DNA from: Acaryochloris marina MBIC11017
Lineage (GTDB): Bacteria; Cyanobacteriota; Cyanobacteriia; Thermosynechococcales; Thermosynechococcaceae
NCBI RefSeq assembly: GCF_000018105.1
Contig: NC_009925.1
Coordinates: forward strand, 2,220,001-2,252,000
Length of the DNA: 32,000 nt
Reading direction: 5' to 3'
Each line of letters begins with the position of its first letter. The stretch's first letter is position 1. The notes beneath the pieces are model-generated. The model was given only the letters and a program-made list of their open reading frames with translations, was not told the origin of the DNA and made no database searches. Position numbers and translations under genes: made by a program. Positions 11,997 through 14,583 of this stretch are shown here, in pieces.

Positions 11997-13433
11997 ATGG
12001 CTTCTACCTGGACCCAACGTCAGCAACAGGTCGAACGGGAAGACCTGGTGATGTTTATTAATGCCTGTCTAAGCTGTACTGGGCAGCGCGAATTTTATGA
12101 CGATGCCTGGGGGCAGAAACTGTCCCTCGACTTTTTGCATGACTATATTTTGGGCAACTATCGGTTACTCTATGCCCGCACCTTAGCCGCAGGGATTAAT
12201 CACTTTAATCAGAGCCAAATTATTCTCAAATTATTAGCAACGGGTAAGCAAACCCTGCCAGAACATCGCCAGGAAGAAGGTCGTCTGATTGCAGCCACGT
12301 TGAATGCGTTGCCCACCCAACGAGCTTGGAAAGTCCTAGAACACATTCGTAAGCGACGCATTAATAATCGGCGGGCAAGGGCGATTACTCGCGATTATAT
12401 TGCAGCCCACCAGAACCGATTGGATTTTGATGCGGTGAAATATCGATCCAAAGTGCGTGGGATCGCAACTCACAATCACCTCAAGTTACCTGGTGAAGTT
12501 GGCCCCTTTTTATTCCGAGACTGGCCCCAGCAGTTTGAAACGGACCTGTTTGAGAAATTTCGCAAAGCGTATTACAGCCATGAGGCGATTTATGAGCTGC
12601 CCTTTACAGTAGCCGAAGGATTAGCAGCCAAACATCAGATTCCTCGCGATCGCTTTTTGACTCGAATTGAGTCTCAAATGACTCAGGCGGAGAAAGTGCG
12701 GTTGCAGCAAAGTACTAGCAGCACGTCGATACTCACCGTTGATCTAAAACGCACCCCGCTCACCAAGCTGGCCCTCTACTGCCTATCTCTATCCATACAA
12801 GAACGGAAAAACCGGCGGGCAGAATTAACAGCGGCTTTAGAACAGTCCTCCCAAGCCGCGCTGCGTCGGGCACCTTTAAAGCTAGGACGGGTTGCAGCAG
12901 TATTGGACTGTAGCTATTCCAGTAGTGGCTCCAATGAAAAACGACGACGACCTTTGGGGGTCGCTTTAGCCGTTCACTATCTGTTGCAAGCAGCCACAGC
13001 AGACTACCAAGCCTTTTGGACATCATCGGTACCAGATCCACTTCTCATTCAACCTCGGGGACAAACGGATCTGGCCACCCCTTTGCTGGATGCCTTAGAA
13101 ACGAAACCCGATGTAGTAGTGATTTTGTCGGATGGCTGGGAGAATGATCCACCCCATGGAGCCTCGGAAGTGTTGCGGGTGTTCCGCAACCGCATCGATT
13201 CATCCGTTTCCATCCTGCACTGCAATCCGGTTTTCAATGCTGATGACTTTTCTGTAAAAGCCCTGAGTCCTGCAGTCCCCACCGTAGGACTGCGAGATGC
13301 GGAGGACTTACCGACAGTGTTGGGATTTGCCCAATTTGCGGACGGGCAATCGTCTTTAGCGGAGCTGGAGCAGTATTTACAGGTCCGCGTCCAGCAGTTT
13401 CTCTCCACCTTTGACCCCAACCATGGCTCCTAA
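11997..13433 (+). CDS. Divergent Ro60/Rsr-like protein: TROVE-like N-terminal region + C-terminal vWA domain (assignment tentative)
   Basis: Motif-level resemblance to Ro60/Rsr from memory:
- FINACLSCTGQREFYDD vs FL(V/C)xGxxGGT(F/Y)Y
- RRARAITRDYIAAHQNRLDFDAVKYRSK vs LRRAVARWY...LAYQLVKYQAR
- MIDAS-like DxSxS in AAVLDCSYSSSGS
- VVVILSDGWEND vs VVYTDSETW

The start may instead be ATG 12051 (MFINAC...). Confidence 0.55.
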   Translation: MASTWTQRQQQVEREDLVMFINACLSCTGQREFYDDAWGQKLSLDFLHDYILGNYRLLYARTLAAGINHFNQSQIILKLLATGKQTLPEHRQEEGRLIAATLNALPTQRAWKVLEHIRKRRINNRRARAITRDYIAAHQNRLDFDAVKYRSKVRGIATHNHLKLPGEVGPFLFRDWPQQFETDLFEKFRKAYYSHEAIYELPFTVAEGLAAKHQIPRDRFLTRIESQMTQAEKVRLQQSTSSTSILTVDLKRTPLTKLALYCLSLSIQERKNRRAELTAALEQSSQAALRRAPLKLGRVAAVLDCSYSSSGSNEKRRRPLGVALAVHYLLQAATADYQAFWTSSVPDPLLIQPRGQTDLATPLLDALETKPDVVVILSDGWENDPPHGASEVLRVFRNRIDSSVSILHCNPVFNADDFSVKALSPAVPTVGLRDAEDLPTVLGFAQFADGQSSLAELEQYLQVRVQQFLSTFDPNHGS

Positions 13434-14583
13434 AGCGCCTCTACTGAATACCCTTTCCCTCAAAGGGATAGAGATTGCCCCTTCTCAAGTTTGGGGGGCG
13501 ATTCGGATTGTGCCGCTCCTGCGCCGCAACGTTCGGGGCGATCTGCGTCTAGCCAAGCGAGACTATAACGAAGATCTCACCGTCGTCTCCCTTCCAGACA
13601 AGACAGTGTACACGTCCTATGTCCCCCACGGTTTAGTGCTGTCCTGGAATGAAGAGGGTCAACCCGTTGCCGCCAAAGGCAGTCAGTTAGGGACCGATGG
13701 AAAACGCTTTCATGCCGGCCCTGCCAGTGTCCGAGTACTGTCGCGCATGGCAAAACGGGAAGCCCGTAACCAGCTCCGATTTCTCCCTCTGCATCTAGCT
13801 ATGGAAGGGTTTCTATCCCTATTTTTCTCGGGACCGGATATTGCTTGGAGTGAGTATTCTAAACAAGCTTTGTCTCAAGGGTTATCACCACGGACAGAAT
13901 GGTCAGTTTCGGGACAGGCGATTCAGGGTCTCGCGGATGCCTTGCGGGTGTTTGAAATCCACGAGCATCAGGTAGGGATGCTGATGTTTGTATCGGAGGC
14001 ATTGGCGTCTGCCTTTATCACCCCCACACCAGAGGACTACCGGCTACTGCACTCCAGTTTGCTGCAAGACTTCTATGGAGAGTTGCTGTATCAGTATGGG
14101 ATTTATGGGGGCACGGTTCCCATGCAGAGCCAGGTGGATGAATCGAAGGTGGAGACTTTGGCGGATTTGCGGGATGCGATCGCAACTCTCAGACAAGACT
14201 GGGCCGATTTCCAAGGACTGATGGCTAGCGATCTATTGCAACGTCCCATTGAATCGAAGCGCATCTACACAGCAGGTCCCTTTACCTTGCAGCGCTTTAT
14301 CACCGACCTACAACTTAAATCGGAGAACCACATTGGCGAGGCAATCGTCCGTCAGGATGGGCAACTGGAATACCTCAAAACCTATCGTTTATCTGCAGGT
14401 CAGGCTCGACGGGCTTATCTGCTCAGTCAGCTAGCTGCCCAAGGCTGGAATATAGAGCGAACGGCGCTATCGATGAATGAGACACTAGAGAACTTTATCT
14501 ATCGGCTAGAAAAAGCTGGCTTTGGCTATTTGATCAATAATCTAGTGCGGGAGCAGGCTCGAAAAGCGCGACGACGGGATTAA
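13423..14583 (+). CDS. Hypothetical 386-aa protein translationally coupled to the TROVE/vWA-like gene
   Basis: The track start 13411 is a TTG. ATG 13423 overlaps the upstream stop (TAA 13431-13433) by 11 nt. There are no catalytic or nucleotide-binding motifs I can recognise. The tail is basic (REQARKARRRD). A faint resemblance of HEHQVGMLMFVSEALASAFITPTPEDYRLL to DUF6569/ARPP-1-type proteins is unverified. Confidence 0.7.
   Translation: MAPKAPLLNTLSLKGIEIAPSQVWGAIRIVPLLRRNVRGDLRLAKRDYNEDLTVVSLPDKTVYTSYVPHGLVLSWNEEGQPVAAKGSQLGTDGKRFHAGPASVRVLSRMAKREARNQLRFLPLHLAMEGFLSLFFSGPDIAWSEYSKQALSQGLSPRTEWSVSGQAIQGLADALRVFEIHEHQVGMLMFVSEALASAFITPTPEDYRLLHSSLLQDFYGELLYQYGIYGGTVPMQSQVDESKVETLADLRDAIATLRQDWADFQGLMASDLLQRPIESKRIYTAGPFTLQRFITDLQLKSENHIGEAIVRQDGQLEYLKTYRLSAGQARRAYLLSQLAAQGWNIERTALSMNETLENFIYRLEKAGFGYLINNLVREQARKARRRD

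What the first reader, a model, noticed from the sequence alone, without database searches (positions are those of the whole stretch)
11997..14583. Divergent Ro60/TROVE-vWA-like gene coupled to an unrecognisable 386-aa partner: candidate undescribed two-gene module
Seen in the sequence:
- The 478-aa product carries two motif blocks that line up with Ro60/Rsr TROVE proteins: FINACLSCTGQREFYDD, and RRARAITRDY...FDAVKYRSK.
- It also has a C-terminal vWA-like region with a DxSxS MIDAS-type motif (LDCSYSS) and an SDGWEND block.
- It is much shorter and far more diverged than classical Rsr.
- Its stop overlaps by 11 nt the ATG of a 386-aa ORF in which I recognise no catalytic, NTP-binding or DNA-binding motif.

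Established knowledge: bacterial Ro60 orthologs (Rsr) bind Y RNAs (YrlA/YrlB), act with PNPase in RNA quality control, and are often in rsr-yrlBA-rtcBA operons.

Here there is no RtcB/RtcA and no obvious Y-RNA. The module is wedged between a K+ channel gene and the convergent Nit1C flavoprotein gene, with only a 17-bp gap at 14584-14600.

Inference: this is a TROVE/vWA ribonucleoprotein-type sensor with a novel effector or adaptor, possibly a stress- or conflict-related system.
Basis: partly seen in the sequence, partly recalled or inferred. Interest (0 to 1): 0.75.

Follow-up and report, generated by a model that had tools for sequence, protein, structure and literature searches.

The report
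Ro60-like protein, new RNA, ARPP-2 partner
The two genes are a very divergent Ro60-type RNA-binding protein and an uncharacterised ARPP-2 protein, and immediately upstream lies a conserved, apparently undescribed ~90-nt structured RNA that accompanies the Ro60-like gene in nearly every genome examined, suggesting a new kind of Ro60/Y-RNA-like particle.

Summary
The 478-aa ORF (11997-13433) is a real but very divergent Ro60 homolog. Pfam TROVE misses it, but its AlphaFold model matches only Ro60/Rsr structures over the full length, and a profile-profile comparison with genuine Ro60 gives 93% probability. The MIDAS motif is intact.

The 386-aa partner (13423-14583, 11-nt overlap) is not unrecognisable. 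It is a full-length Pfam ARPP-2 protein (E 2e-117), a family that is named but has never been characterised experimentally. The pair is syntenic in 22 of 24 genomes, and also in a deltaproteobacterium.

A ~90-nt structured RNA lies at 11893-11982, 15 nt before the ATG. It has three helices, 14 of 22 pairs are compensatory, and 96% of cells are paired against 33-46% in slid controls. Rfam has no match for it. It lies upstream on the same strand in 23 of 24 genome loci, in the window, and in 9 of 9 independent metagenome hits, sometimes as two tandem copies.

A distant Planctomycete clade pairs a Ro60-like gene with an ARPP-1-type gene, tRNA arrays and a related RNA.

Best reading: a Ro60/Y-RNA-like ribonucleoprotein module with ARPP-2 as its partner. 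RNA binding and function are inferred, not shown.

The parts
11880..11888 (+). Extended -10-like promoter box TGCTAGCGT. It ends 4 nt before the RNA model start, so transcription is predicted to begin at about 11893-11896.
   Evidence: TGnTAnnnT lies within 18 nt upstream of 19 of 41 RNA copies, against 1.1% of background windows. TAnnnT is there in 31 of 41 copies against 19% background. The hexamer starts at -9 to -11 in nearly all of them, including the high-GC copy L067 (TGTTAGCGT). This is a consensus match only; no transcription start data are available.
11893..11982 (+). Conserved structured RNA of about 90 nt.
- P1: 11895-11906 pairs with 11967-11977, with a single bulged pyrimidine at C11903.
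- P2: 11912-11919 pairs with 11953-11960.
- P3: hairpin 11929-11932 / 11940-11943 with a 7-nt loop.
- Invariant cores: GGGACU at 11904-11909, ACUUCCG at 11918-11924, CCCC at 11967-11970.
   Evidence: - blastn found it more conserved than the coding DNA.
- 29 copies were aligned. RNAalifold gives 22 pairs, 13 of them compensatory.
- Pair counts: 94.6% of cells paired against 35-51% for slid controls. On 39 pooled copies: 95.8% paired, 14 of 22 pairs compensatory, covariation 0.575 against 0.165 or less.
- cmsearch scores 88.9 bits in the window, and the reverse strand reaches 25 bits at most.
- U-G and G-U pairs identify + as the sense strand.
- Rfam has no match.
11997..13433 (+). Divergent Ro60-type protein, 478 aa. 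A helical-repeat (TROVE-like) part covers aa 1-291 and a vWA domain covers aa ~295-470.
   Evidence: - AF2 model: pLDDT 82.7, pTM 0.76.
- Foldseek: the top 12 PDB hits are all Ro60/Rsr/TROVE, probability 1.00, E 2e-6 to 2e-3, TM 0.44-0.54, about 500 aligned columns.
- hhalign against human and Xenopus Ro60 and Deinococcus Rsr: 93%, E 3.5e-7.
- No Pfam TROVE hit.
- 1573 homologs and 635 clusters at 50% identity.
12438..12479 (+). KYRSK (aa 148-152) and H159-N-H161. This block aligns with Ro60 K170-Y171-K172-Q173-R174 and H187.
   Evidence: The alignment is from hhalign. Y149 is invariant and K148 and H159 are at least 90% conserved across the 66-sequence superfamily alignment. The Ro60 H187S mutant loses Y RNA binding (PMC11277228). 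Equivalence of function is an inference.
12906..13148 (+). Complete MIDAS metal site of the vWA domain: D304-x-S306-x-S308 (12906-12920), T357 (13065-13067) and D379 within SDGWEND (13128-13148).
   Evidence: D304, S308 and D379 are invariant, and S306, G355, G380, E382 and N383 are at least 90% conserved in the diverse alignment A5. These residues align with Ro60 VDVSAS, GGTD and TDNETF. There are weak sequence hits to VWA_CoxE and the CobT vWA.
13423..14583 (+). ARPP-2 family protein, 386 aa. The ARPP-2 domain is aa 11-285 (13453-14277). The C-terminal ~100 aa are unassigned. Its start overlaps the upstream stop by 11 nt.
   Evidence: - Pfam PF22549: E 2.1e-117, 391.6 bits, profile positions 1-278 of 278.
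- 96% identical to an NCBI 'ARPP-2 domain-containing protein' from Acaryochloris sp. CCMEE 5410.
- The N-terminal consensus MAxKxxLL supports the ATG at 13423.
- No relative among PDB sequences.
- The AF2 model is unusable, pLDDT 44.

Best explanation
The locus is a three-part ribonucleoprotein module: a ~90-nt structured RNA, a divergent Ro60-type ring protein with a functional-looking vWA/MIDAS domain, and an ARPP-2 protein.

Shown:
- The RNA is a real, selectively maintained structure, read on the same strand as the genes.
- Wherever it was found in this analysis, it lies next to this Ro60-like gene family and nowhere else.
- The protein has the Ro60 fold and is homologous to Ro60.
- The ARPP gene is a deeply conserved downstream partner and is translationally coupled here.

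Inferred:
- Transcription starts at an extended -10 promoter right in front of the RNA. The RNA forms the 5' end of the operon transcript, because only 15 nt separate it from the ATG.
- The Ro60-like protein binds this RNA through its bulged terminal stem and invariant loop nucleotides, as Ro60 binds Y RNA. The RNA could act as a released Y-like RNA, as an autoregulatory leader, or as both.
- ARPP-2 is recruited through the MIDAS face or the RNA and acts as the effector, the role PNPase plays for Rsr/Y RNA. It probably acts on RNA or on ribose-containing ends in RNA surveillance under stress.
For: RNA:
- Three helices. 14 of 22 pairs are compensatory, 95.8% of cells are paired against 33-46% for slid controls, and 0 of 500 shuffles reach the covariation score.
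- Five divergent copies folded individually give the same architecture, with z-scores from -2.2 to -7.4.
- The RNA is present in the window and in 23 of 24 genome loci, always upstream on the gene strand, with two tandem copies in five loci.
- All 9 independent metagenome hits of 50-95 bits lie directly upstream of a Ro60-like gene. Four of them are on contigs with 64-73% GC.
- A Deltaproteobacteria MAG has it as well, at 72.7 bits.
- The RNA is retained in L018 and L020, where ARPP-2 is not adjacent.
- Its generic features match those listed for Y RNAs in PMC4201824: 80-130 nt, a long terminal stem, a large internal loop, the same strand within 4 kb of the Ro60 gene, and multiple copies. PMC11277228 adds that a bulged nucleotide in the terminal stem is critical.

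Protein:
- Foldseek and hhalign both link it to Ro60.
- The KY..K and His block aligning with Ro60 K170-R174 and H187 is conserved, and the MIDAS motif is intact.

Partner:
- Synteny holds in 22 of 24 genome loci, plus L145, L067 and L028.
- An ARPP-1/2-type gene lies downstream in 7 of 7 loci of a clade only 27-34% identical.
- No other gene is a conserved neighbour.

Promoter.
Against: - There are no expression, binding or phenotype data of any kind.
- Rfam Y_RNA and YrlA models do not match, and the RNA has no tRNA-like domain.
- The invariant UUCCG(AA) sits in an internal loop rather than in the 5' strand of the terminal stem, where GGUCCGA or GNCGAA sit in known Y RNAs.
- The RNA lies in the mRNA leader, so a purely cis-regulatory role would explain its position equally well.
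- A U-run after P1 is present in only some copies, so release of a discrete small RNA is uncertain.
- The Nostocales-type copies lack the extended -10 box.
- ARPP-2 has no known activity, its model failed, and the conserved cysteine reported for ARPP (PMC9503650) is not conserved here.
- Pfam TROVE and HMM-versus-PDB sequence searches fail. Homology to Ro60 therefore rests on the fold and on one profile-profile result that used a three-sequence Ro60 profile.
Confidence: 0.6

Rival explanations
1. The RNA is only a cis-acting autoregulatory leader. The Ro60-like protein, or ARPP-2, binds the 5' UTR of its own mRNA to limit its synthesis, as ribosomal-protein leaders do. No free Y-like RNA is made and the RNA has no scaffolding role.
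For: - The RNA is 6-33 nt from the start codon in most loci, so it must be part of the mRNA.
- It is associated with a single gene family only.
- No consistent terminator follows P1.
Against: - In several loci 176-560 nt of unrelated repeats separate the RNA from the gene (L008, L020, L023, L014). That argues against a spacing-dependent operator.
- Five loci have two tandem, diverged copies. In L005-L007 the second copy is preceded by its own -10-like box (TGACAAAAT or TTCACAAAAT, a match by eye).
- Some copies end in a U-run after P1 (L009, L004, L011, L094).
- Known bacterial Y RNAs can also be co-transcribed with rsr (established knowledge of the rsr-yrlBA-rtcBA operon).
Confidence: 0.2
2. 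The RNA is a riboswitch-type sensor of a small molecule, for example a nucleotide or an ADP-ribose-derived compound (given what has been proposed for ARPP). It would control expression of the operon independently of the Ro60-like protein.
For: - Invariant nucleotides are concentrated in the internal loops and flanked by covarying stems, which is typical of aptamers.
- It sits in the 5' leader.
- ARPP has been proposed to act on ribose or ADPr-type molecules (PMC9503650).
Against: - All 41 copies identified precede the same gene family. Riboswitch classes normally control varied transporters and enzymes.
- No expression platform is evident. P1 does not overlap the ribosome-binding region (read directly from the sequence). 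Only 15 nt remain before the ATG in the window, and terminator-like U-runs are inconsistent.
- The spacing to the gene varies from 6 to 560 nt.
Confidence: 0.12
3. The module is an anti-phage or other conflict system. The Ro60-like protein would sense foreign or damaged RNA and ARPP-2 would be a toxic effector.
For: - ARPP proteins were defined in ARG-centred systems proposed to counter viral ADP-ribosylation (PMC9503650).
- vWA and TROVE domains occur in some immune-type proteins (PMC11277228).
- In the Anabaena-type locus a NACHT-type gene lies nearby.
Against: - No PADLOC model matches either protein.
- Patterns derived from alignment A1 found no viral contig encoding the family.
- Neighbours are unrelated housekeeping-type genes and differ between genomes.
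- The proteins are 60-70% identical across cyanobacterial orders. That is the opposite of the rapid diversification typical of defence genes.
Confidence: 0.08

Closest known systems
Bacterial Ro60 (Rsr) - Y RNA ribonucleoproteins (D. radiodurans Rsr/Yrn1/PNPase; Salmonella Rsr/YrlA/YrlB)
   Same: - A ring-type Ro60 fold joined to a vWA domain with a MIDAS site.
- A structured RNA of about 90 nt encoded next to the gene on the same strand, sometimes in two copies.
- The RNA has a long stem formed by its two ends, with a bulged nucleotide, and large internal loops.
- A dedicated protein partner could play the role of the tethered effector.
   Different: - The protein is 478 aa, against about 535, and only 11-14% identical to Ro60. 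Pfam TROVE does not see it.
- The RNA matches no Rfam Y_RNA or YrlA model and has no tRNA-like module. Its invariant motifs (GGGACU, ACUUCCG) are different.
- The partner is ARPP-2, encoded in the operon, rather than PNPase acting in trans.
- No RtcB or RtcA is present.
- The RNA is the leader of the mRNA.
ARPP proteins of ARG-centred NAD+/ADP-ribose conflict systems (Iyer, Burroughs, Anantharaman, Aravind 2022; Pfam ARPP-1 PF20208 and ARPP-2 PF22549)
   Same: The 386-aa protein is a full-length ARPP-2 domain protein. ARPP-1 and ARPP-2 cross-match each other.
   Different: - The published contexts are ARG systems, HIRAN, WYL and an aminosugar deacetylase. A Ro60-like/vWA partner with an upstream RNA is not mentioned in the held text.
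- No ARG or rhodanese-phosphatase gene is nearby.
- The conserved cysteine emphasised for ARPP is not conserved in this subfamily.
rsr-yrlBA-rtcBA RNA repair operon
   Same: A Ro60-type gene is co-transcribed with its structured RNA(s) and with an enzyme gene.
   Different: There is no RtcB ligase, RtcA cyclase or RtcR regulator. The order is RNA first, then the protein genes. One Planctomycete relative does have an RNA ligase and a metallophosphatase immediately downstream.
Autoregulatory protein-binding mRNA leaders (e.g. ribosomal-protein leaders)
   Same: A conserved structured element in the 5' UTR of the gene for an RNA-binding protein, associated only with that gene.
   Different: It occurs as tandem copies, some preceded by their own -10-like boxes. 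The spacing to the gene is variable and sometimes very long. The overall architecture resembles a Y RNA.

Membership tests
Ro60 / TROVE-vWA proteins | Match to the Pfam TROVE model (PF05731) | tested here: not met
   No TROVE hit at E <= 1 for the window protein, and none for 10 distant relatives. UniRef nevertheless names several orthologs 'TROVE domain-containing protein'.
Ro60 / TROVE-vWA proteins | Ro60 fold: helical-repeat ring followed by a vWA domain | tested here: met
   An AF2 model with pLDDT 82.7. The top 12 Foldseek PDB hits are all Ro60/Rsr/TROVE, aligned over the full length, probability 1.00, TM 0.44-0.54.
Ro60 / TROVE-vWA proteins | Sequence homology to genuine Ro60 | tested here: met
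   hhalign of the 66-sequence family profile against human Ro60, Xenopus Ro60 and Deinococcus Rsr gives 93% probability, E 3.5e-7, over 281 columns. Plain HMM searches against PDB sequences fail.
Ro60 / TROVE-vWA proteins | MIDAS motif DxSxS...T...D in the vWA domain | tested here: met
   D304, S306, S308, T357 and D379 are invariant or nearly so across the superfamily and align with the Ro60 MIDAS residues. The motif definition is from PMC11277228.
Ro60 / TROVE-vWA proteins | Binds a Y RNA on the outer ring surface and misfolded RNA in the central cavity | not testable with these tools
   Only indirect evidence: the conserved KY..K/His block aligns with Ro60 K170-R174/H187, and a dedicated RNA lies adjacent.
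Y RNAs (Rfam Y_RNA, YrlA) | Match to the Rfam covariance models | tested here: not met
   No Rfam family matches at gathering score in the window. None matches at E <= 10 in 10600-16700 or at E <= 1 in nine other loci that carry the RNA.
Y RNAs (Rfam Y_RNA, YrlA) | 80-130 nt, long stem formed by the 5' and 3' ends, large internal loop | tested here: met
   About 85-90 nt. P1 is formed by the two ends and carries a single bulge, and internal loops surround P2 and P3. The criteria are from PMC4201824.
Y RNAs (Rfam Y_RNA, YrlA) | Encoded within 4 kb of the Ro60 gene on the same strand | tested here: met
   The RNA lies 6-560 nt upstream on the same strand in all 41 copies located.
Y RNAs (Rfam Y_RNA, YrlA) | Ro-binding motif GGUCCGA / GNCGAA(N)G in the 5' strand near the 5' end | tested here: inconclusive
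   An invariant UUCCG, usually followed by AA, is present but lies in the internal loop about 26-34 nt from the 5' end. The terminal stem has an invariant G-[C/U bulge]-GGGACU instead.
Y RNAs (Rfam Y_RNA, YrlA) | tRNA-like domain (YrlA subfamily) | tested here: not met
   ARAGORN finds nothing in 10500-16800, and Rfam reports no tRNA-clan match at the element.
ARPP-2 (Pfam PF22549) | Full-length match above the gathering score | tested here: met
   391.6 bits against a cutoff of 27, profile positions 1-278 of 278. Homologs carry a precomputed PF22549 assignment.
ARPP-2 (Pfam PF22549) | Absolutely conserved cysteine and glutamine described for ARPP | tested here: inconclusive
   Q22 and Q88 are invariant, but no cysteine is conserved in the 51-sequence alignment. 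The published description (PMC9503650) may refer to ARPP-1.
ARPP-2 (Pfam PF22549) | Linkage to ARG / rhodanese-phosphatase genes | tested here: not met
   The only universally conserved neighbour is the Ro60-like gene.
rsr-yrlBA-rtcBA RNA repair operon | Adjacent RtcB ligase and RtcA cyclase | tested here: not met
   The window neighbours are an ion channel and a flavoprotein. No further gene is conserved across 32 loci.
Riboswitches | An expression platform, and control of varied genes related to one ligand | tested here: not met
   The RNA is associated with a single gene family. No consistent terminator or ribosome-binding-site sequestration is visible.
Known anti-phage defence systems (PADLOC) | Match to a defence-system protein model | tested here: not met
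   No hit at E <= 1 for either protein. No viral copies were found.

The most novel reading that the evidence does not exclude
This would be a previously unrecognised, ancient branch of Ro60 ribonucleoproteins. It has its own class of Y-like RNA, defined by a GGGACU...CCCC bulged terminal stem, and a built-in ARPP enzymatic subunit. It is widespread in cyanobacteria and is also found in a deltaproteobacterial MAG, in high-GC metagenome contigs of unknown origin, and, in a variant form beside tRNA arrays, in Planctomycetes. On this reading it acts in RNA or tRNA surveillance during translational or other stress, and ARPP proteins are RNA- or ribose-directed enzymes.
Probability: 0.45. Interest if true: 0.88.

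Novelty: new variant of a known kind. Interest (0 to 1): 0.8.

Why it matters
Ro60/Y RNA particles are conserved from bacteria to humans, where Ro60 is a major autoantigen, yet their bacterial biology is known from only two or three species and one RNA family (YrlA). Chen et al. 2014 noted that few Y RNAs could be found in cyanobacteria and delta-proteobacteria.

This locus offers a possible explanation. A large Ro60-like clade that Pfam does not detect (635 clusters at 50% identity) has its own RNA, which Rfam does not contain, and a fixed protein partner.

If the RNA binds the protein, three things follow:
- A new Y-like RNA class is defined.
- The ARPP families get their first concrete biochemical context, namely RNA.
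- The link becomes testable in genetically tractable Anabaena PCC 7120, where the locus sits next to a translational-stress regulon, and in Planctomycetes, where it follows tRNA arrays.

Tried and rejected
- NCBIfam and PADLOC scans of both proteins gave nothing.
- phmmer and hmmsearch of the protein, and of shallow and diverse family profiles, against PDB sequences found no Ro60. The only result was a weak CobT vWA match.
- Pfam scans of 10 distant relatives found no TROVE domain.
- The AF2 model of ARPP-2 had pLDDT 44, so no fold search was run. The ARPP-2 profile found nothing among PDB sequences, and the C-terminal 107 aa have no Pfam hit.
- Rfam at gathering and at permissive thresholds found no family for the RNA. 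ARAGORN found no tRNA-like gene near the module.
- The TrcR operator (TGTAGTAT-like, PMC10272220) does not match the conserved -10 box of the RNA. That paper's supplements do not list alr0858 or alr0859.
- A recurrent 149-aa ORF downstream turned out to be a fragment of a kinase-like membrane protein in a few related loci. The Alr0857-family neighbour is specific to the Nostocales-type loci.
- The viral-contig scan failed with the diverse alignment and found nothing with A1.
- The cyanobacterial RNA model does not detect the Planctomycete element.
- The 2016 Burroughs and Aravind RNA-repair survey is not held, and no supplements are held for the ARPP paper. A prior mention there cannot be excluded.
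- My recollection of which Ro60 mutant loses Y RNA binding was wrong. I corrected it from PMC11277228.

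
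Full report
**1. Checking the observation**

The sequence shows the ATG at 13423-13425 and the TAA at 13431-13433, which is an 11-nt overlap. The N-terminal consensus of homologs (MAxKxxLL) supports that ATG over the upstream TTG. A convergent ORF ends at 14601, so the 17-bp gap is real.

The neighbours are an Ion_trans channel, a Pyr_redox_3/FMO-like flavoprotein and, further on, a CN_hydrolase. The cited motif blocks are present: aa 20-36, 125-152, 303-309 and 378-384.

**2. The 478-aa protein is a divergent Ro60**

Simple sequence tools fail on it:
- Pfam gives no TROVE hit at E <= 1, only a sub-threshold VWA_CoxE match.
- NCBIfam and PADLOC give nothing.
- HMM searches of PDB sequences with the single protein, with a 56-sequence profile and with a 66-sequence diverse profile never reach Ro60.

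The family is nevertheless large: 1573 hits in the 90%-clustered database and 635 clusters at 50% identity. Members at 27-35% identity also lack a Pfam TROVE domain.

An AlphaFold2 model built from the family alignment is confident (pLDDT 82.7, pTM 0.76). It shows helical repeats over aa 1-291 and an alpha/beta domain over aa 299-470. Foldseek against the PDB returns only Ro60/Rsr/TROVE structures as its top 12 hits. These include human, Xenopus and Deinococcus Ro60, a Thermus phage Ro60 and a 'Trove domain' entry. All align over about 500 columns with probability 1.00, E 2e-6 to 2e-3 and TM 0.44-0.54, followed by a sharp drop to unrelated folds.

To get a sequence-level test I recovered the genuine human, Xenopus and Deinococcus sequences from PDB search output, aligned them and compared profiles. 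hhalign gives 93% probability, E 3.5e-7, over 281 columns. That alignment pairs:
- RRARAITRDY...FDAVKYRSK...HNHLKL with Ro60 WGRALRKAIADWY...AVTKYKQR...LSHLKP.
- LDCSYS with VDVSAS.
- GQTD with GGTD.
- SDGWEND with TDNETF.

Across the diverse alignment, the invariant or near-invariant residues are exactly K148, Y149, H159 and the MIDAS set D304, S306, S308, G355/T357, D379. Ro60 H187, at or next to the aligned histidine, is the residue whose H187S mutation abolishes Y RNA binding (PMC11277228).

**3. The 386-aa partner is ARPP-2**

It matches Pfam PF22549 end to end (E 2.1e-117). It is 96% identical to a protein that NCBI already calls 'ARPP-2 domain-containing protein' in Acaryochloris sp. 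CCMEE 5410.

[quoted passage not shown] It was defined computationally in Iyer et al. 2022 (PMC9503650). That paper proposes an enzyme acting on ribose-containing molecules and lists as contexts ARG systems, HIRAN, WYL and a deacetylase. A Ro60-like partner is not among them. Nothing experimental is known about the family.

In this subfamily Q22, R28, H69, W75, Q88, K111-R112-E113, H124 and E128 are invariant, but no cysteine is. The AF2 model was unusable (pLDDT 44), and the profile has no relative among PDB sequences.

**4. The pair is a conserved module**

A scan of one genome per species returned 24 cyanobacterial loci. tblastn finds the ARPP-2 gene immediately downstream on the same strand in 22 of them. 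The exceptions are L018 and L020. The L020 genome still has an ARPP-2 gene elsewhere.

The K+ channel and the flavoprotein never co-occur with the pair. Clustering all ORFs from 32 loci shows that only these two proteins are universal.

A relative at 50% identity in a Deltaproteobacteria MAG has the same overlapping arrangement. In a clade only 27-34% identical (Planctomycetes, Bacteroidota, Elusimicrobiota), all seven loci examined have an ARPP-1/ARPP-2-type gene downstream. ARPP-1 and ARPP-2 cross-match each other. The association is therefore ancient.

**5. The unexpected part: a structured RNA at 11893-11982**

A sensitive blastn of the 194-nt intergenic region showed a block of about 78 nt that is conserved at 73-82% across orders. 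That is better than the coding DNA, at about 65%.

A pattern search found 29 copies, in the window and in 23 of 24 loci. All are on the gene strand, 6-560 nt upstream of the Ro60-like start, and none lies elsewhere in the ~12-kb loci. Five loci carry two tandem copies. The only locus without it, L010, has just 371 nt of upstream sequence.

RNAalifold predicts three helices with 22 pairs, 13 of them compensatory. In the pair count, 94.6% of cells are paired against 35-51% when the 3' partners are slid. The covariation score is 0.516 against 0.05-0.18, and 0 of 500 shuffles reach it.

Frequent U-G and G-U pairs mean that + is the sense strand, and the covariance model scores the reverse strand at 25 bits or less. 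Five divergent copies folded individually give the same architecture, with z-scores from -2.2 to -7.4.

The architecture is:
- A long terminal stem P1 with an ever-present single bulged pyrimidine, flanked by invariant G and GGGACU.
- An internal loop.
- P2.
- A large loop containing invariant ACUUCCG and a small hairpin P3 with a 7-nt loop.
- A CCCC run closing P1.

For independent validation, a metagenome scan with a core pattern followed by cmsearch gave nine hits of 50-95 bits. All nine lie directly upstream, on the same strand, of a Ro60-like gene. Four are on contigs of 64-73% GC where the protein is only 47-55% identical, and ARPP-2 follows wherever the contig extends far enough. The Deltaproteobacteria MAG has the RNA too, at 72.7 bits. 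An Anabaena-type locus has two copies.

Pooling 39 copies gives 95.8% paired cells, 14 of 22 compensatory pairs and a covariation score of 0.575 against 0.165 or less. This alignment is fitted to the model, which favours the structure somewhat.

Rfam 15 has no match at any threshold, in the window or in nine other loci. No tRNA-like gene is detected. I found no publication describing this RNA.

**6. How it is probably expressed**

An extended -10-like box (TGnTAnnnT) lies within 18 nt upstream of 19 of 41 copies, against 1.1% of background windows. Its hexamer starts 9-11 nt before the model start. The window has TGCTAGCGT at 11880-11888, and the 72%-GC contig L067 has TGTTAGCGT. The binomial p-value is inflated because the copies are related.

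In the window only 15 nt separate the RNA from the ATG, which leaves no room for another promoter. The RNA must therefore be the 5' end of the operon transcript. This is an inference.

Three observations argue against a strictly spacing-dependent cis element:
- A U-run follows P1 in some copies.
- Long repeat insertions separate the RNA from the gene in other loci.
- In L005-L007 the second tandem copy is preceded by its own -10-like box (a match by eye).

**7. Interpretation**

Chen et al. 2014 (PMC4201824) give the generic Y RNA features: 80-130 nt, a long terminal stem carrying the Ro60 site, a large internal loop, a location within 4 kb on the same strand as the Ro60 gene, and often several copies. 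The review PMC11277228 adds that the bulged nucleotide in the terminal stem is critical. The new RNA meets these generic criteria.

It fails the family-specific ones. There is no Rfam match and no tRNA-like domain, and its UUCCG(AA) core sits in a loop rather than in the 5' strand of the stem.

I therefore do not file it as a Y RNA family member. I propose that it works like one, as the dedicated RNA ligand of a Ro60-type protein, with ARPP-2 as the operon-encoded partner or effector. Translational coupling and the intact MIDAS site suggest a physical complex. Binding, release of a free RNA and any ARPP-2 activity are all inferred.

The rivals are:
- A purely cis autoregulatory leader.
- A riboswitch. 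This is disfavoured by the exclusive association with one gene family and by the lack of an expression platform.
- A conflict system. This is disfavoured by no PADLOC hit, no viral copies, variable housekeeping neighbours and high conservation.

**8. Wider pattern (partly followed up)**

In Planctomycetes the Ro60-like/ARPP-1-type pair lies directly downstream, on the same strand, of tRNA arrays. L151 has 12 tRNA genes, L154 has 8, and L152 and L153 have a tRNA-Cys plus one more.

Between the last tRNA and the gene is an element of about 100 nt, conserved at 86-92% between genera. It folds with a GGGACU...CCCC closing stem whose outer pairs are compensated. RNAalifold gives 27 pairs, 11 of them compensatory, but from only four sequences. 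This suggests that an RNA partner is ancestral to the whole superfamily.

In the Anabaena-type locus the first RNA copy starts 11 nt after a gene of the Alr0857 family. In Anabaena PCC 7120, asr0855-alr0857 is part of the TrcR translational-stress regulon, which also contains rtcB and a tRNA operon (PMC10272220). The TrcR operator does not match the RNA's promoter box.

**9. Verdict**

The partner belongs to a named but uncharacterised family.

Noticed in passing
L151 1-2033; L154 552-2153; L152 2130-2298; L153 1973-2141 (Planctomycete loci of the distant Ro60-like clade): tRNA gene arrays lie directly upstream, on the same strand, of the Ro60-like/ARPP-1-type gene pair. There are up to 12 genes, and ARAGORN assigns some of them unusual anticodons such as His-ATG and Ser-ACT. 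L146 has three to four tRNAs downstream instead. This is reminiscent of tRNA-mimicking YrlA RNAs and of stress-induced tRNA arrays.
   Followed up: partly
L151 ~2085-2185; L152 ~2350-2450; L153 ~2193-2290; L154 ~2187-2283: An element of about 100 nt between the last tRNA and the Ro60-like gene is conserved at 86-92% between Planctomycete genera. It folds with a GGGACU...CCCC closing stem like the cyanobacterial RNA. RNAalifold gives 27 pairs, 11 of them compensatory, but from only four sequences. The cyanobacterial model does not detect it.
   Followed up: partly
L154 5366-6587: In Thalassoglobus, a metallophosphatase gene and an RNA ligase (PF09414) gene follow the Ro60-like/ARPP pair on the same strand. 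This is an RNA-repair-type context that is absent from the window.
   Followed up: no
L148 2190-2814 (Anabaena-type locus): The first RNA copy begins 11 nt after the stop of an Alr0857-family gene. In Anabaena PCC 7120, asr0855-alr0857 is de-repressed about 8-fold in a trcR mutant and belongs to a translational-stress regulon that includes rtcB and a tRNA operon (PMC10272220). The Alr0857-family gene is adjacent in nine Nostocales-type loci only. A NACHT/EAD4-type gene lies further upstream on the opposite strand.
   Followed up: partly
L020 5812-5990; L008 5730-5990; L023 5825-5995; L002/L003 between and after the RNA copies: Long simple tandem repeats have been inserted between the RNA and the Ro60-like start codon in several genomes. 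Examples are GGGGAGAT-type units, AGGAGTT-type units, and TTTTAGA-type then TACTTGC-type units. They stretch the spacing to 176-290 nt.
   Followed up: no
window 6808-10698 (-): A 1296-aa ORF is made almost entirely of glycine/aspartate-rich nonapeptide-like repeats (GGxGNDxL...). It looks like an RTX/hemolysin-type calcium-binding repeat protein. The strongly negative GC skew over 8-10 kb reflects it.
   Followed up: no
They are unrelated to the module and are not syntenic with it elsewhere.
   Followed up: partly
window 11949-11954 and the equivalent loop in most RNA copies: The 3' internal loop of the RNA usually contains a self-complementary CUAGCUAG or GCUAGC stretch. It could mediate dimerisation or kissing contacts between RNA copies, or it could simply be a conserved protein contact.
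   Followed up: no
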